A DNA stretch of 64,000 nucleotides. Origin: Alphaproteobacteria bacterium (GTDB lineage: Bacteria; Pseudomonadota; Alphaproteobacteria; GCA-2731375). Below are positions 2,991-8,218 of this stretch, piece by piece. Each line of letters opens with the position of its first letter. Position 1 is the first letter of the stretch. The stretch covers positions 2,272,001 to 2,336,000 of the forward strand of contig CBDDPY010000002.1 of the NCBI GenBank assembly GCA_965232515.1, written 5' to 3'. The position numbers and the translations under genes are program-made. The notes beneath the pieces are model-generated. The model was not told where the DNA came from and ran no database searches. It was given only the letters and a program-made list of their open reading frames with translations.

Positions 2991-3063
2991 CTTCACGGTC
3001 GGCCCGACGGCGTTATCCGGCTAGACTTTCGCTGGCGCTTAACGGTGTGCGGGAGGAGCGGCG

Positions 3064-4500
3064 ATGGCGGGCTTTCAGGACTTCGAAAATTACGACGGAT
3101 TGGGTCTGGCAGACCTGGTGCGGCGCGGCGAGACGACGGCCGAAGAGCTGCTGGATGCGGCGATCGGGCTGTGCGAAGCGCGAAACGGCCAGGTCAACGC
3201 CGTCATCCGCGAGCTGTTCGACCTGGGCGCCCGGCAGATCGCGGACGGGCTGCCGGACGGGCCGTTCCGCGGCGTGCCGTATCTGCTGAAGGATCTGACG
3301 GCGTCGCTCGCCGGGGTGCCGATGACGCGCGGCAGCCGCTATTTCATGGACTCTGCGCCGCCGGCAGAAGACAGCGAATATGTGAAGCGCCTGAAAGGGG
3401 CAGGGCTGGTGATCTATGGCCGGACCAATTCCTGCGAGCTGGGCCTGAGCCTGACCTGCGAGCCAGTGGCCTATGGCGCCTCGCACAATCCCTGGGACCT
3501 GAGCCGGACGCCGGGCGGCTCCAGCGGCGGCTCGGCGGCGGCGGTCGGCGCGCGCATGCTGCCGATGGCGCACGCCACCGACGGTTTCGGCTCGATCCGC
3601 GCGCCCGCCGCCTGCTGCGGCCTGGTCGGCCTGAAGCCGACGCGGGCGCGCAACTCCTCGGCTCCGACGCTGGGCGAAGGCCTGGGCGGACTCGCGGCCG
3701 AGCACGCGGTGACGTTGTCGGTGCGTGACAGCGCGGCGCTGCTGGACGCGACCGCCGGCCCGGTGCCGGGCGATCCCTATCAGGCGCCGCCGCCGACGCC
3801 GTTCCTGGCCGCGGTCGGCGCGGACGGACCACCGCTGCGCATCGCCGTCACCAAGACCCCGCCGAACGGCGCGCCCGTGGCGGACGACAGCCTGCGGGTG
3901 CTGGACGAGACGGCGGCGCTCTGCGCCGAGCTGGGTCACACAATCGACAACGCCGATCCGGCGATCGAGCGCGAGGGGGTGATCCCGACCTTCCTGACCA
4001 TCATGGCCGCGAACACGGTGGTGAACCTGTCGACGCACCCCAACGCCACGCAGCCGGCGGGGCCCGAGGATGTCGAGAAGGTCACTTGGGCCTGCGCCGA
4101 GATGGGCGAGAAGGTCTCCGGCGCCGATTATGTGCGGGCGACGCAGACCGCGCACCGGCTCGGCCGACAGATGGCGGCGTTCCACCAGGATTGGGATGTG
4201 CTGCTGACGCCGGGCCTGGCGACACTGCCGCCCAAGCTCGGCCACCTCGACATGATGATGGACGATGTCGACGAATATTGGGCCCGCGTGTTCGACTTCT
4301 CGCCGTTCACGGTCTGGTTCAACATCACCGGCCAGCCGGCGATGATGCTGCCCATCGGCGCGACAACAGACGGCTTCCCGATCGCCGTGCAGCTGGTCGC
4401 CCGCTTCGGCGACGAGGCCACCCTCTTCCGCCTCGCCGGCCAGCTCGAAAAGGCCCGCCCCTGGTTCGACCGGCGTCCGATGATCTCTGCATCGACATAA
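3064..4500 (+). CDS. Amidase-signature family amidase
   Basis: [21 protein letters not shown] and [11 protein letters not shown] (Ser-cisSer-Lys signature). Confidence 0.95.
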
Positions 4501-4547
4501 GCGGTCTGAAATCAAGCGACGGATTGCCAATCCAATGAAACCGAAGC

Positions 4548-4576
4548 GGCTTGCCGGCTTCCGAAGCGGGCAAGCC
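4548..4576. terminator. GC-rich hairpin downstream of the amidase, possible intrinsic terminator
   Basis: GGCTTGCCGGCTT-CCG-AAGCGGGCAAGCC stem followed by an A-run. Confidence 0.4.
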
Positions 4577-4711
4577 TCAAAAAGACAAATCAGATCGGAA
4601 GCATCACACAATTAGGTTGCGATGGAGAGAAATTTTTAAATTTCAAGTCGTGAAACGCATCTAAAAGTTGAATATCCTTCGCAATCGTTTGATTCTTGCG
4701 GAGGGCACAAG

Positions 4712-5704
4712 ATGACCGCGACATTTGCCGAGGCCTACAACGACATACTGGATCGCTTTCAGACAACGTGGAACCCAACCGGGTTCCTCGCCGAACTTCA
4801 AAATACACCGCCGCCGACCCCGATTGTTGGCGAACCATGGGCTCGTCTGATCGTTGAGCATACTGGGAACCAAACATCAGTCATGGCGGGACAGTTTTGC
4901 GACCGCATTGGCACGATCACGGTTGAGATATTTGTCCCGAAGGACGAAGGTCTCACCCGCGGCTATGGGTTGGCCCGAACGATCATTCAAGCATTTCAGG
5001 GTATTCCAACACCGAAAAACGTCTGGTTCAGAAACGCCCGATTGAATGAAATCGGTCTCAGTACCAACTGGTTCCAAATCGATGTACTGATCGATTTCGA
5101 ATACTTTGCTGTTCCTGGTGCATCGGCGCCGGTTCTTCTTAACTTCACGCAGTGGAGTCAGACAGACCGAATTCCTGGAAACTGGGTGTTCAGCAATAAT
5201 GACCGGTCTTTTCAATCACCCGACGATGCTGCTGGTGGGCTTCGCGCCATCCATAGCAATGACGTCGGAAAATTTTACTGGGAAATGTTCTACGCTGGTG
5301 CCAATGCCTCGGGACAGAACTTCCCAGATGCACTGGGGATTGGTGTGGCGCGTTCTGACCAGCCACTAACAGGTTCGTCGAACATCAATCCACCGTTTGC
5401 CTTCATGAACACACCCAGCGGGTTTGTTCCTGGCGCGACGGTCGTGCGTTTCGCATTGGACCTTGATGTGGGAGCGCTTTGGACGTCCAAGGATGCTGTT
5501 TGGGACAATGGCGCTACGACGTTAGAGATCGAAGCCGGAAACACGACAAATGCAACAGGAACCGGCCTCACCGGGAGCTATTTTCCTTACTTCCAAGATG
5601 GTGGAACGGCAGAATCTTACTGGTGGGACGCTAATTTCGGTCAATCCGCCTTTGCTCATCCCGTGCCCAATGGATTTCTCCCAGGCTTCGGTTTGGTCGG
5701 ATAG
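4712..5704 (+). CDS. Putative phage tail terminator-like domain fused to a SPRY/B30.2-like domain
   Basis: The N-terminal ~130 aa (WARLIVEH...RIGTITVEIFVPKDEGL...LARTIIQAF...WFQIDVLIDFEY) resemble tail-terminator/tail-completion proteins. The C-terminus (FSNNDR, GKFYWEM, GIGVA, FALDLDVGALW, YFPYF, NFGQSAFAHPVPNGF) resembles SPRY. GGAGGG RBS; GC ~50% in sampled lines versus ~70% in neighbouring genes. Confidence 0.7.
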   Translation: MTATFAEAYNDILDRFQTTWNPTGFLAELQNTPPPTPIVGEPWARLIVEHTGNQTSVMAGQFCDRIGTITVEIFVPKDEGLTRGYGLARTIIQAFQGIPTPKNVWFRNARLNEIGLSTNWFQIDVLIDFEYFAVPGASAPVLLNFTQWSQTDRIPGNWVFSNNDRSFQSPDDAAGGLRAIHSNDVGKFYWEMFYAGANASGQNFPDALGIGVARSDQPLTGSSNINPPFAFMNTPSGFVPGATVVRFALDLDVGALWTSKDAVWDNGATTLEIEAGNTTNATGTGLTGSYFPYFQDGGTAESYWWDANFGQSAFAHPVPNGFLPGFGLVG

Positions 5705-5828
5705 AGAAACTTCGACGCCCCAAGCTAAGCCGTTTTAGAAACAGGCTTTCCGCTGCCTCACCAGCCCAAGTTTGGGCTGCCTAGCCGACGACAACAACGT
5801 TCAATCAACCACCTACGAGACCCGGACG

Positions 5829-6959
5829 CTAGAGCGCCATATACCGCCGGAGGTGGTGGTCCTTGTTGCCGAACATGATGTCGATCATGGTCAGGCGCTT
5901 GAAGTAGTGGCCGACGCGCAGTTCGTCGGTCATGCCCATGCCGCCGTGCAGCTGGACCGATTCCTGGCCGATGAAGCGGCCGCTGTTGCCGATCTGCACC
6001 TTGGCGGCCGAGACCGACTTCTTACGGGCGTTGGCGTCTTCGTCTTCGAGGTTCAGCGTCGCCATGTAGGCCATCGAGCGCGACTGCTCGTATTCCATGA
6101 ACATGTCGACCATGCGGTGCTGCAGCACCTGGAACTTCGACAGCGGCTGGCCGAACTGCTTGCGGGTCTTGAGATATTCGTTGGTGTCGTCGTGCAGCAC
6201 CTTCATGCAGCCAACGGCCTCGGCACAGAGTGCCGCCGTGGCATGGTCGGCGACGGTCTCCAGCAGGGTCAGGCCCTCGTCGACCGGGCCGATGACGGCA
6301 TCGTCGCCGACCGCGACGTTGTCGAAGGCGATCTCGGCCGCGCGCAGGCCGTCGACGGTGGGATAGTCGCGGCGCGTGATGCCGCCGGCCATGGCGTCGA
6401 CCAGGAACAGGGTAATGCCCGCCTTGTCGCGCCGCTCGCCCGAGGTGCGGGCCGAGACGACCAGCATGTCGGCGCAGCCGCCATGCAGCACGACGCCCTT
6501 CTGGCCGTTCAGCACATAGCCGCCGCCGTTTTTCGTAGCGGTCAGGGCGACATCGTGGAGGTCGTAGCGCGATTGCGGCTCGGCATAGGCCAGCGCCAGC
6601 ATGCACTGGCCCTCGGCCAGCTTCGGCAGCCACTCCCGTTTCTGCTCGTCGCGGCCGCCCAGCATCAGGGCGCCGCCGCCCATCACCACGCTGGCGAGAT
6701 AGGGCTCGAGCACCAGGCCGCCGCCGAGCGCTTCCATGATGATCATGGTCTCGACCGGGCCGCCGCCGATGCCGCCGAATTCCTCCGGCAGCGACACGGC
6801 AAGCCAGCCGAGCTCGGCCATCTGCTTCCAGTTGTCGCGGCTGAAACCGTCGGCCGATTGCGCCAGCGCGCGGCGTTTGTCGAACTCATAGGCCTCCCGC
6901 ACGAAACGGTCGACACTGTCCTTCAGGAGCTGCTGCTCCTCCGATAGCGAAAAATCCAT
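5829..6959 (-). CDS. pimD: Acyl-CoA dehydrogenase, PimD-like (small subunit)
   Basis: MDFSLSEEQQLLKDSV, ALAYAEPQSR, RKQFGQPLSKFQVLQHR and QLHGGMGMTDE; lies downstream of pimC-like genes. Confidence 0.8.
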   Translation of the reverse strand: MDFSLSEEQQLLKDSVDRFVREAYEFDKRRALAQSADGFSRDNWKQMAELGWLAVSLPEEFGGIGGGPVETMIIMEALGGGLVLEPYLASVVMGGGALMLGGRDEQKREWLPKLAEGQCMLALAYAEPQSRYDLHDVALTATKNGGGYVLNGQKGVVLHGGCADMLVVSARTSGERRDKAGITLFLVDAMAGGITRRDYPTVDGLRAAEIAFDNVAVGDDAVIGPVDEGLTLLETVADHATAALCAEAVGCMKVLHDDTNEYLKTRKQFGQPLSKFQVLQHRMVDMFMEYEQSRSMAYMATLNLEDEDANARKKSVSAAKVQIGNSGRFIGQESVQLHGGMGMTDELRVGHYFKRLTMIDIMFGNKDHHLRRYMAL

Positions 6960-7021
6960 GACGCTTCCCTAGTAACTCTTATTTCGCGGCCCTTCGGGCC
7001 CAGGCTCGATCGGCCGCTCGC

Positions 7022-8218
7022 TTAAAGGCCAAGCACCATCTTGGCCATGATGTTCTTCTGGATCTCGTTGGTGCCGCCGTAGATCGACGTCTTCCGCCAA
7101 TTGAAATAGGTCGGCGCCAACGGTGGCGCGTAAGCCGGCCCGATCGGCGCCTCGTTCCAACCGTAGTCGAGCGCCTCGCGCACGTAGGGCTGGGCGTAGT
7201 AGCCGACCGCCTCCATCAACAGCTCGCTGATGCCCTGCTGGATCTCGGTGCCCCGGATCTTCAACAGGCTGGTCTCGGCGCCGGGCGGCTTGCCGGCGTT
7301 CTCGCTGATGACGTAGCGCAGCTCGGTCATTTCGAGCGCGCTGAGATCGATCTCCAGCTTCGCCACCTTCTCGCGGAAATCGGTGTCCTCGATCAGCGGC
7401 GCGCCGGACATGGTCTCGTGGCCGGCGATGTCCTTGAGACGCTCGATCTGCGCCTTCGAGCGGCCGACGGCGGCGATGCCGGAGCGCTCGTGGCCAAGCA
7501 GGAACTTGGCGTAGGTCCAGCCCTTGTTCTCCTCGCCGACCAGGTTCTCGGCCGGCACGCGCACGTCGCTGAAGAACACGGTGTTGATCTCGGCGCTGCC
7601 GTCGATGGTGACAATGGGCTGCACCTCAACGCCGGGTGTGGTCATGTCGATCAGCAGGAAGGAAATGCCCTCCTGCGCCTTGGCGTCGGGATCGGTGCGC
7701 ACCAGGCAGAAGATCATGTTCGCGTGCTGGGCCAGCGTGGTCCAGGTTTTGGAGCCGTTGACGATGTAATGGTCGCCGTCGCGCACGGCCCGCGTGCCGA
7801 GCGAGGCGAGATCGGAGCCCGAGCCCGGCTCGGAATAGCCCTGGCACCACCAGTCCTCGCTGGTCAGGATGCGCGGCAGGTAATGCGCCTTCTGTTCATC
7901 GCTGCCGAACGTATAGATGACAGGCGCGACCATCTTGGTGCCGAACGGCACGACACGCGGCGAATGGCCGCGGGCCAGCTCTTCCTCGAAGATGTAGCGC
8001 TGCATCGGTGTCCAACCGGTGCCGCCATGCTCGACCGGCCAGTGCGGCGCCAGCCAGCCACGGTCGTTCAGAATACGCTGCCAGCGGACGAAATCGTCCT
8101 TCTCCAGCTTGCGTCCGTGCGCGACCTTTTCACGAATATCGGCCGGCAGGTTCTCTTCGATAAAGCCGCGCACCTCGCGCTGAAAAGCGAGATCGTCATC
8201 GGTCAGTTGCAGGTCCAT
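7022..8218 (-). CDS. pimC: Acyl-CoA dehydrogenase, PimC-like (large subunit)
   Basis: WCQGYSEPGSGSDLASL, NGSKTWTT, GWTYAKFLLGHER and SIYGGTNEIQKNI. Confidence 0.8.
   Translation of the reverse strand: MDLQLTDDDLAFQREVRGFIEENLPADIREKVAHGRKLEKDDFVRWQRILNDRGWLAPHWPVEHGGTGWTPMQRYIFEEELARGHSPRVVPFGTKMVAPVIYTFGSDEQKAHYLPRILTSEDWWCQGYSEPGSGSDLASLGTRAVRDGDHYIVNGSKTWTTLAQHANMIFCLVRTDPDAKAQEGISFLLIDMTTPGVEVQPIVTIDGSAEINTVFFSDVRVPAENLVGEENKGWTYAKFLLGHERSGIAAVGRSKAQIERLKDIAGHETMSGAPLIEDTDFREKVAKLEIDLSALEMTELRYVISENAGKPPGAETSLLKIRGTEIQQGISELLMEAVGYYAQPYVREALDYGWNEAPIGPAYAPPLAPTYFNWRKTSIYGGTNEIQKNIMAKMVLGL

What the first reader, a model, noticed from the sequence alone, without database searches (positions are those of the whole stretch)
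4712..5704. Solitary low-GC gene fusing a phage tail-terminator-like domain to a SPRY-like domain, with no prophage around it
Seen: an intact 330-aa ORF with its own RBS and an AT-rich upstream region, about 50% GC in sampled lines, wedged between an amidase and acyl-CoA dehydrogenases. No integrase, terminase, capsid or other tail gene is present in the 64 kb. Recognised by eye: the N-terminal ~130 aa resemble tail-terminator proteins and the remainder a SPRY/B30.2 beta-sandwich. Established: tail terminators cap the tail tube and join it to the head, normally as small single-domain proteins inside morphogenesis operons; SPRY domains are binding modules. Inference: a domesticated virion protein. 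It could be (a) a dominant-negative decoy that poisons tail completion or head-tail joining of infecting phages, i.e. an undescribed anti-phage mechanism, or (b) an unlinked accessory of a GTA/tailocin that displays a binding domain at the neck. This is the best candidate for a new system in the window.
Basis: partly seen in the sequence, partly recalled or inferred. Interest (0 to 1): 0.8.

Follow-up and report, generated by a model that had tools for sequence, protein, structure and literature searches.

The report
Stranded phage tail-terminator–SPRY fusion gene
A single intact phage gene, joining a tail-capping domain to a SPRY binding domain, sits alone in this bacterial chromosome; the fusion is very rare, but nothing yet shows that the bacterium uses it.

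Summary
ORF 4712-5704 (+) is 330 aa, has a GGAGG ribosome-binding site, and is 52.9% GC against 65.6% for the window.

- **N-terminal domain (residues 1-135).** It is a siphophage tail terminator: phrog_179, E 4e-19, about 40% identical to terminators that lie between the head-closure and tail-tube genes of phages.
- **C-terminal domain (residues ~140-330).** It is a SPRY domain (alignment-based model pLDDT 89.9; Foldseek probability 1.00 to solved SPRY domains). The subfamily is common in phage virion and fibre proteins.
- **Rarity.** In 1.84 billion representative proteins, only one cluster of four sequences carries both domains.
- **Insertion.** The gene lies in a 1,328-bp foreign insert between convergent amidase and acyl-CoA dehydrogenase genes. 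A relative has those two genes about 8 nt apart.
- **No partner machinery.** The 7.39-Mb genome gave no hit for tail tube, tape measure, portal, HK97 capsid or TerL. This argues against a gene transfer agent (GTA) or tailocin accessory.
- **Phage precedent.** One viral contig fuses two SPRY domains to the neighbouring neck protein Hc1.

My reading is a recently captured phage neck-decoration gene, probably a passenger. The anti-phage decoy idea is untested and not excluded. The fusion is a new variant of a known kind, of moderate interest.

The parts
3064..4500 (+). Left host flank: the amidase gene, 70.0% GC. Its stop codon marks the left edge of the insert.
   Evidence: PF01425, E 4.8e-83. 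GC. In relative G032 this gene ends about 8 nt from the dehydrogenase stop codon.
4501..4711 (+). Upstream part of the foreign insert, 46% GC. It holds a 14-bp-stem hairpin at 4548-4576 and the GGAGGG ribosome-binding site at 4700-4705.
   Evidence: Sequence. Hairpin is inverted repeat I4. GC. No sigma-70-like promoter was found by the consensus scan, and there was no Rfam match.
4712..5116 (+). Residues 1-135: the siphophage tail-terminator domain.
   Evidence: phrog_179, E 4.1e-19. The domain is 34-40% identical to terminators of PhiJL001, PaMx25 and NP1-type phages. All 7 nearly invariant family positions are kept.
5111..5131 (+). Short linker (about VPGASAP, residues 134-140) between the last terminator strand and the first SPRY strand.
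   Evidence: Stand-alone terminators end at the position matching residue 131-134. SPRY homologues begin to align at about residue 140.
5132..5701 (+). Residues ~141-330: a phage-type SPRY domain. It is about 15-19 residues shorter in its middle than its homologues.
   Evidence: AF2 with alignment A3 gave pLDDT 89.9 and pTM 0.88. Foldseek against PDB put SPRY domains on top at probability 1.00, and BFVD put phage SPRY and tail-fibre proteins on top. The A3 profile matches the RanBP10 SPRY at E 1e-22. The deletion is seen.
5705..5828 (+). Downstream part of the foreign insert. No ORF and no recognised element.
5829..6959 (-). Right host flank: an acyl-CoA dehydrogenase gene, convergent with the amidase.
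   Evidence: PF00441, PF02771 and PF02770. It is 76% identical at the DNA level to the G032 orthologue next to the amidase.

Best explanation
The ORF is an intact gene for a phage neck protein.

**Design (part shown, part inferred).** A siphophage tail-terminator domain is joined by a 6-8-residue linker to a SPRY beta-sandwich. By the established role of tail terminators (recalled), this ring caps the finished tail tube and docks the head-completion protein. The SPRY belongs to the subfamily that phages mount on virion and fibre proteins. I infer that in its phage of origin the protein built a terminator ring carrying a collar of SPRY binding modules at the head-tail junction.

**History (inferred).** In this bacterium the gene arrived recently as a 1.3-kb foreign fragment inserted between two convergent metabolic genes.

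**Present role.** The genome has no tail for it to terminate. Most probably it is a not-yet-decayed passenger with no selected host function. If it is expressed, the only activity its anatomy predicts is binding the tube or head-closure proteins of related infecting siphophages.
For: **Domain identity**
- N-terminal domain. C-terminal domain.

**Terminator position in phages**
- The homologue lies between head closure and tail tube in viral contig L071, RcSimone-Hastad and PhiJL001.
- In 13 of 14 bacterial-genome loci of the class it has neck, tube or chaperone neighbours within 1.5 kb.

**SPRY subfamily is a virion module**
- IMG/VR holds 176 relatives.
- Of 56 non-redundant SPRY ORFs, 45 match phrog_19943 'virion structural protein', 22 match phrog_24898 'tail fiber protein' and 1 matches Hc1.

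**Precedent**
- In L071 a 656-aa protein (SPRY-SPRY-Hc1) is encoded directly upstream of a phrog_179 terminator.

**Foreign and recent**
- GC is 0.52 against 0.66, and GC3 is 0.55.
- Relative G032 has an empty site.
- No match in 32 other genomes of the family or in 400 other genomes of the class.

**No partner machinery**
-.

**Small foreign islets are common here**
- The main contig has 66 windows-merged islets below 54% GC.
- Ten sampled islets carry unrelated or orphan genes.
Against: **Features that fit retention or use**
- The ORF is fully intact with a canonical ribosome-binding site.
- It is the only virion gene detected in the genome.
- The insert holds exactly one gene, which is tidy for junk.
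- Four sequence variants exist (87-88% identical to this one; P0002 and P0268 differ from each other at 9 sites). None has an indel or stop, and 27 of 41 changes are conservative. This points to purifying selection somewhere, though possibly in phages.
- A contig of another study's run bridges the amidase into the ORF (4324-4743, 11 differences), so the locus is stable within the species.

**Gaps in the phage-origin story**
- No phage carrying this exact fusion was found, so a phage origin of the fusion itself is inferred.
- The terminator fold was not confirmed structurally.
Confidence: 0.55

Rival explanations
1. Domesticated assembly poison. The host expresses the terminator-SPRY protein. 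It caps tail tubes, or occupies head-closure proteins, of infecting siphophages that use phrog_179-type terminators. The bulky SPRY collar, or mistimed capping, then blocks head-tail joining. This would be a single-gene anti-phage defence.
For: - The gene is intact, has a ribosome-binding site and stands alone in a genome without any tail machinery.
- All 7 nearly invariant terminator positions are kept.
- Variants carry no indels.
- Phages with this terminator family do reach this bacterial family: G002 has a neck module with one.
Against: - PADLOC gives no match.
- The neighbours are metabolic, not a defence island.
- Composition shows recent arrival.
- The gene was not found in 32 family genomes.
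- The closest terminator is only 46% identical, so no cognate phage is known.
- SPRY-bearing neck proteins occur in bona fide phage neck operons, so the fusion needs no defence explanation.
- No promoter or expression evidence was obtained.
Confidence: 0.15
2. Last surviving gene of a prophage that decayed in place. A whole prophage once lay between the amidase and the dehydrogenase, and deletions removed everything but this gene.
For: - Terminators of this family normally sit in neck modules of genomes of this class (13 of 14 loci).
- A same-family genome (G002) carries such a module.
Against: - The insert is only 1,328 bp and has no fragment of the flanking Hc1 or tube genes on either side.
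- There is no integrase, tRNA or attachment-like repeat.
- The site lies between two convergent stop codons about 8 nt apart in G032.
- Two exact deletions are less parsimonious than one short illegitimate insertion.
Confidence: 0.15
3. Host-adopted binding or scaffold protein unrelated to phages, for example a ring-forming display of SPRY modules used in surface or host-association biology.
For: - SPRY is a generic binding module.
- Runs holding parts of the stretch include host-associated and marine metagenomes.
- The gene is intact.
Against: - No signal peptide or secretion context was examined or seen.
- No relatives occur in other bacteria.
- Every relative of both domains with a known context is viral.
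Confidence: 0.1
4. Unlinked structural accessory of a GTA, a tailocin or a prophage elsewhere in the genome.
For: None beyond the domain identity.
Against: - The whole genome (96.25% complete) gave no match for HK97 capsid PF05065, portal PF04860, TerL PF03354, tape measure PF10145 or the tube family phrog_290 that partners this terminator.
- There is no second terminator or SPRY of this kind.
- Other capsid, terminase and sheath families were not searched.
Confidence: 0.03

Closest known systems
Stand-alone siphophage tail terminators of PHROG family phrog_179, for example PhiJL001 gp77, the PaMx25/NP1 'tail terminator' and RcSimone-Hastad gp76
   Same: Residues 1-135 align end to end at 34-40% identity. 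The family's 7 nearly invariant positions are kept.
   Different: Those proteins are 133-164 aa, have one domain and lie between the head-closure and tube genes. This one is 330 aa, carries a C-terminal SPRY and has no morphogenesis neighbours.
The SPRY-SPRY-Hc1 neck protein of viral contig L071/L070 (656 aa), encoded directly upstream of a phrog_179 terminator
   Same: A neck-ring protein of the same phage type is fused to SPRY domains of the same subfamily (phrog_37978 and phrog_10080 hits).
   Different: The SPRY domains are N-terminal and sit on the head-closure protein, not C-terminal on the terminator. That gene lies in an intact neck-tail operon. Its SPRY is only about 28% identical to this one.
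Phage SPRY/B30.2 virion proteins, for example the 'tail fiber protein' of Burkholderia phage AH2 and SPRY proteins of uncultured Caudovirales, RSL2 and ACP17
   Same: The fold matches at Foldseek probability 1.00 with TM 0.63-0.76 normalised to the query. The conserved ...EIEAG.TTNA... segment is shared with metagenomic homologues.
   Different: Those are stand-alone SPRY proteins of about 200 aa, or fibre-type multidomain proteins. None has a terminator domain.
Other extended terminators of the same family: P0145 (401 aa, N-terminal extension) and P0135/P0146 (about 50-aa internal insertion)
   Same: They show that this terminator family tolerates added domains.
   Different: The additions sit elsewhere in the protein and are not SPRY.
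Lambda gpU, the textbook tail terminator
   Same: Same gene position (directly upstream of the major tail protein) and, by annotation, the same role.
   Different: No detectable sequence relation: hhalign of the A4 profile against gpU gave probability 0.3%. A shared fold was not shown here.

Membership tests
Siphophage tail terminator (phrog_179; Pfam PF13554 Phage_tail_terminator_5) | Significant match to the family profile over the whole domain | tested here: met
   phrog_179 at E 4.1e-19, residues 1-135 against profile positions 14-152 of 162. Pfam PF13554 falls below its cut-off, 13.2 against 27 bits.
Siphophage tail terminator (phrog_179; Pfam PF13554 Phage_tail_terminator_5) | Conserved family residues retained | tested here: met
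   A8, G67, G80, F106, G115, F129 and Y131 are each at least 90% conserved in 83 aligned sequences, and all are present in this protein.
Siphophage tail terminator (phrog_179; Pfam PF13554 Phage_tail_terminator_5) | Gene lies between the head-closure/completion gene and the tail-tube gene | tested here: not met
   Here the flanks are an amidase and an acyl-CoA dehydrogenase. Homologues keep the canonical position, as do 13 of 14 bacterial-genome loci.
Siphophage tail terminator (phrog_179; Pfam PF13554 Phage_tail_terminator_5) | Small single-domain protein of about 130-165 aa | tested here: not met
   This protein is 330 aa with a second domain. Of the 150 best hits, 126 are terminators of 120-170 aa.
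Siphophage tail terminator (phrog_179; Pfam PF13554 Phage_tail_terminator_5) | Terminator fold like solved structures | tested here: inconclusive
   The single-sequence model has pLDDT 37.9 and found nothing at E <= 0.001. The A4 profile matches only PDB 2l25 'uncharacterized protein' at E 0.0085. hhalign against lambda gpU gave probability 0.3%. Fold jobs were exhausted.
Siphophage tail terminator (phrog_179; Pfam PF13554 Phage_tail_terminator_5) | Forms a hexameric ring on the tube end and docks the head-completion protein | not testable with these tools
   Needs particles or a hexamer-with-tube model.
SPRY / B30.2 domain (PF00622) | Profile match to the SPRY family | tested here: met
   The protein itself gets no PF00622 hit at E <= 10. 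Of 10 C-terminal homologues scanned, 9 match PF00622 at E <= 0.01 (8 above the 26.3-bit cut-off; P0023 scores 19.3 bits, and P0101 matches Gly_rich_2 only). The A3 family profile matches solved SPRY domains at down to E 1e-22.
SPRY / B30.2 domain (PF00622) | Bent beta-sandwich SPRY fold | tested here: met
   The model has pLDDT 89.9. The top PDB matches are all SPRY domains (Ash2L, TRIM67, TRIM9, RanBP9/10, SPSB2) at probability 1.00, with TM 0.51-0.64 normalised to the query.
Known anti-phage defence systems (PADLOC-DB 2.0.0) | Match to any defence-protein model | tested here: not met
   0 families at E <= 1. The neighbours are metabolic.
RcGTA-type gene transfer agent or resident tailed prophage | Capsid, portal, terminase, tube and tape-measure genes present in the genome | tested here: not met
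   PF05065, PF04860, PF03354, PF10145 and phrog_290 each gave 0 matches in G000. The controls gave hits in the reference genomes.

The most novel reading that the evidence does not exclude
A chromosomally fixed tail-terminator-SPRY fusion works as a single-gene assembly poison. It competes with the terminator of infecting siphophages for the tube end or for the head-closure ring, and its six-fold SPRY collar prevents productive head-tail joining. This would be defence by a captured virion part, acting at the very last step of morphogenesis.
Probability: 0.12. Interest if true: 0.8.

Novelty: new variant of a known kind. Interest (0 to 1): 0.4.

Why it matters
- **A rare design.** A terminator with a C-terminal SPRY module has not been described in the papers searched. 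No paper holds both 'tail terminator' and 'SPRY'. Among 1.84 billion representative proteins it occurs in a single cluster.
- **What it suggests about phages.** Together with the SPRY-SPRY-Hc1 protein of L071, it suggests that some marine-type siphophages wear a SPRY collar at the neck. That is a possible extra binding site on the virion.
- **A clean case to test.** The solitary, intact copy sits in a genome with no detectable tail machinery. It is a tidy case for asking whether captured virion parts can interfere with phage assembly.
- **Link to host immunity.** Tail terminators are among the structural proteins that bacterial Avs (STAND-type) sensors recognise (PMC13581612, passages read). 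A resident terminator gene is therefore not necessarily neutral.
- **If it is only a passenger.** It is then an ordinary product of illegitimate capture of phage DNA.

Tried and rejected
**Searches that did not reach far enough**
- Word-indexed homologue searches with the whole protein and with residues 138-330 found only P0002. The exhaustive phmmer search and the alignment-seeded search were needed.
- Single-protein scans found nothing in genome contigs, in viral contigs or by tblastn against plasmids. blastn of the insert against phages also found nothing.
- The metagenome scan gave two SPRY-only loci without a terminator.
- NCBIfam gave no family.

**Folds and alignments**
- The single-sequence AF2 model of the whole protein was poor (pLDDT 37.9). 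Its Foldseek search gave no match at E <= 0.001. Lambda gpU, the P74-26 neck and the A-1(L) terminator appear only at E of about 1.4 with probability <= 0.11, which I treat as meaningless.
- Alignment A2, with both homologue sets in one alignment, misaligned the SPRY proteins onto the terminator domain. I discarded it, so no full-length alignment-based model was made.
- hhalign of the terminator profile against lambda gpU showed no relation.
- Complex prediction with 4 copies of residues 1-136 returned 'no answer' (score 0.15 against a mark of 0.42). This is no evidence either way.

**Expression and sequence features**
- No RNA holder was listed for the locus. Reads were laid on four contig-type runs, so there is no expression evidence.
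- In run X5 the only 2 of 39 laid contigs at least 95% alike are ORF pieces (4967-5343). This might mean another genomic context, or just low coverage. I do not build on it.
- No sigma-70-like promoter and no Rfam family were found.
- The flanking repeats are short and of chance-like strength, so I do not read them as element ends. They are D14 (10 nt, at 4626 and 5703) and I3 (18 nt, 83% complementary).

**Spurious hits and off-target searches**
- The phmmer hits P0007, P0009, P0012 and P0066 (6-11 stretches on residues 64-107) are repeat proteins that the terminator HMM does not match. I rejected them as spurious.
- The paper search was badly targeted and gave nothing useful. Searches gave no report of a terminator decoy or of a SPRY neck protein. 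For these I saw listings only, except PMC13581612, where I read passages.
- The protein atlas gave only viral SPRY clusters at score 0.81, which is lead level.
Full report
**Observation.** The ORF at 4712-5704 (+) is real. It is 330 codons from the first start codon of its frame, and GGAGGG lies 7 nt upstream of the ATG. It sits in a sharp compositional trough. The ORF is 52.9% GC and its spacers are 46.0% and 55.6%, against 70.0% for the amidase, 65.9% for the first dehydrogenase and 65.6% for the window. Its GC3 is 0.55, while host-like ORFs of the window have 0.72-0.92. Pfam confirms the neighbours. On the left are a chromate transporter, a transglutaminase-like protein and the amidase. On the right are three acyl-CoA dehydrogenases, an IF-2B-family protein and a short-chain dehydrogenase. 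Further right, out to 20.7 kb, lie oxidoreductase, efflux and enolase-type genes.

**What the two halves are.** Residues 1-135 match PHROG family phrog_179, 'tail terminator', at E 4.1e-19. Pfam's PF13554 model scores below its cut-off. tblastn against 50,697 phage records gave 237 records. All of them cover only about residues 1-131, up to 173 in one case, and 0 of 237 reach 80% coverage. The best are PhiJL001 (39.7% identity, E 1e-22) and the PaMx25/NP1-type Pseudomonas phages, where the gene is annotated as tail terminator. In an alignment of 83 family members the seven positions conserved at 90% or more are all present in this protein.

Residues ~140-330 are a SPRY domain. Of 10 C-terminal homologues scanned, 9 match PF00622 at E <= 0.01, 8 of them above the cut-off. 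A 56-sequence profile matches solved SPRY domains at down to E 1e-22. The alignment-based AF2 model has pLDDT 89.9 and pTM 0.88. Its best PDB matches are all SPRY domains at probability 1.00. In the viral structure library the best matches are phage SPRY proteins and a phage 'tail fiber protein'. Compared with its homologues the domain lacks about 15-19 residues in its middle. The model dips to pLDDT 63-75 there but keeps the sandwich.

The terminator fold was not confirmed by structure. The only whole-protein model was made without an alignment and is poor. The family profile matches only PDB 2l25 weakly. No relation to lambda gpU is detectable by hhalign.

**How rare the fusion is.** An exhaustive phmmer search of 1.84 billion representatives gave 1,018 hits at E <= 0.001, and only one (P0002, 88% identical) spans both domains. 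Of the 150 best, 126 are stand-alone terminators of 120-170 aa. The rest are SPRY proteins of 201-5,719 aa, a few terminators with other additions (P0145, P0135, P0146) and four spurious repeat proteins. The 90% cluster holds four sequences: this one, P0002, P0268 and the 273-aa P0269. No fusion was found in any of these:
- the phage records;
- IMG/VR;
- the species-representative genomes;
- the metagenome scan;
- 32 genomes of the family;
- 400 genomes of the class.

**What phages do with these parts.** The terminator homologue occupies the canonical place directly upstream of the tail-tube gene and downstream of head closure. This holds in viral contig L071, RcSimone-Hastad and PhiJL001. In the class sample, phrog_179 occurs in 16 of 400 other genomes. 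In 13 of the 14 loci I could read, it has adaptor, head-closure, tube or chaperone neighbours within 1.5 kb. In the window's locus it has none.

The SPRY subfamily is abundant in viral contigs, with 176 relatives, of which the best 80 loci were kept. Of 56 non-redundant SPRY-bearing ORFs, 45 match phrog_19943 'virion structural protein' and 22 match phrog_24898 'tail fiber protein'. None of the SPRY ORFs in the 80 loci contains a terminator domain. In L070/L071, however, a 656-aa protein carries two SPRY domains followed by a head-closure Hc1 domain, and it is encoded immediately upstream of a phrog_179 terminator. A neck ring decorated with SPRY modules is therefore a natural design in this phage group. 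The window's protein puts the same module on the adjacent ring.

**How it lies in the chromosome.** In relative G032 the amidase and dehydrogenase orthologues are convergent, with their stop codons about 8 nt apart. Here they are 1,328 nt apart, and the whole interval is low in GC. The insert holds one gene. It shows no convincing terminal repeats, no tRNA, no integrase in the window and no Rfam element.

Genome-wide (7.39 Mb, 96.25% complete) there is no second terminator or SPRY of this kind. There is also no match to the HK97 capsid, portal, TerL ATPase or tape-measure families, or to the tube family that partners this terminator. Other capsid, terminase and sheath families were not searched.

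Small low-GC islets are common in this genome: 66 on the main contig at under 54% GC per kb. Ten sampled ones carry a radical-SAM protein, a glycosyltransferase, an AIR-synthase-like protein and orphans, but no virion genes. Being a solitary low-GC gene is therefore not unusual here. Being a virion gene is.

**Population data.** Contigs of four public runs were laid on 3000-7500.
- One run of the same organism label holds identical pieces.
- In a run of another study, a 420-nt contig bridges the amidase end into the ORF (4324-4743, 11 differences), so the junction is real and shared within the species.
- The divergent variants (P0002 group) differ from this protein at 40-41 of 330 positions, with no indel or stop, and 27 of the changes are conservative.

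This suggests purifying selection during that divergence. Their genomic context is unknown, so the selection may have acted in phages. No expression evidence could be obtained (see Tried and rejected).

**Most likely mechanism.**
- Shown: the domain identities, the uniqueness of the fusion, the insertion and the lack of partner genes.
- Inferred: in its source phage the protein formed the terminator ring with six outward SPRY modules, a neck collar for binding. A short fragment carrying the gene was captured by illegitimate recombination. In this host it has no morphogenetic job and is probably a recent passenger (confidence 0.55).
- Rivals: an assembly-poison defence (0.15), a relic of in-place prophage decay (0.15), another adopted binding role (0.10) and a GTA or tailocin accessory (0.03).

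The defence idea is attractive because the protein is intact, alone and keeps the family's conserved positions. Against it, there is no defence-island context, no PADLOC match, no deep conservation and no expression data. The SPRY-Hc1 precedent also removes the need for a special explanation of the fusion.

**Comparison and novelty.** The protein works like, and by sequence belongs to, the phrog_179 tail terminators, but it fails their size and gene-context features. Its C-terminal half is a member of the phage SPRY subfamily. No paper in the searched library mentions 'tail terminator' together with 'SPRY'. I rate it a new variant of a known kind. Interest is moderate (0.4): the architecture is unique and the decoy hypothesis is directly testable, but the ordinary reading is the more likely one.

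**Limits.** The gene order adaptor / head closure / tail completion / tube, and the capping role of terminators, are established knowledge that I recall rather than tested. The annotated orders agree with them.

Noticed in passing
L071:3215-5182 (same protein in L070:109-2085): A viral contig encodes a 656-aa neck protein with two N-terminal SPRY domains and a C-terminal head-closure Hc1 domain (phrog_161). It lies directly upstream of a phrog_179 terminator and a 593-aa tube protein. A SPRY-decorated phage neck seems undescribed in the papers searched.
   Followed up: partly
Proteins P0145, P0135 and P0146 (one search hits): Other extended terminators of the same family. P0145 (401 aa) has a 264-aa N-terminal extension of unknown kind. 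P0135 and P0146 have an insertion of about 50 aa inside the domain.
   Followed up: no
G000 contig C2, whole length: There are 66 small islets below 54% GC in a 65.5% GC chromosome. Ten sampled ones hold a radical-SAM protein, a glycosyltransferase, an AIR-synthase-like gene (phrog_1207) and five proteins with no Pfam match plus one (L106) with only weak, below-cut-off hits. This genome takes up short foreign fragments often.
   Followed up: partly
G000 contigs C3 (5,516 bp, 45.8% GC) and C4 (10,862 bp, 42.3% GC): C4 has no ORF of 120 aa or more, and C3 has only three short overlapping ones. These look like non-bacterial or non-coding contamination of the assembly rather than plasmids or phage.
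   Followed up: partly
L122 = G000:C2:2251301-2255450, about 17-20 kb upstream of the window start: A low-GC islet with four low-GC3 ORFs. One is an Xre/MbcA/ParS-type antitoxin-like protein (PF09722, E 6.6e-07), and the 291-, 433- and 235-aa neighbours have no Pfam match. It may be a toxin-antitoxin or defence cassette.
   Followed up: no
Protein P0003 (5,719 aa): A giant metagenomic protein with five SPRY domains of this subfamily between residues 2658 and 5424. It is the closest relative of the window's SPRY C-terminus (41% over residues 221-330).
   Followed up: no
window 4548-4576: A near-perfect 14-bp-stem hairpin (13 of 14 paired, 1-nt loop) lies inside the insert just after the amidase stop. 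It is GC-rich in an AT-rich spacer and has no T-run on the + strand. It may be a terminator for the amidase or a remnant of the inserted fragment.
   Followed up: no
G002:C1:3865919-3866299 (L111): A genome of the same bacterial family carries a phrog_179 terminator inside a recognisable adaptor / head-closure / terminator / tube / chaperone module. Phages of this neck type therefore do reach this family.
   Followed up: partly
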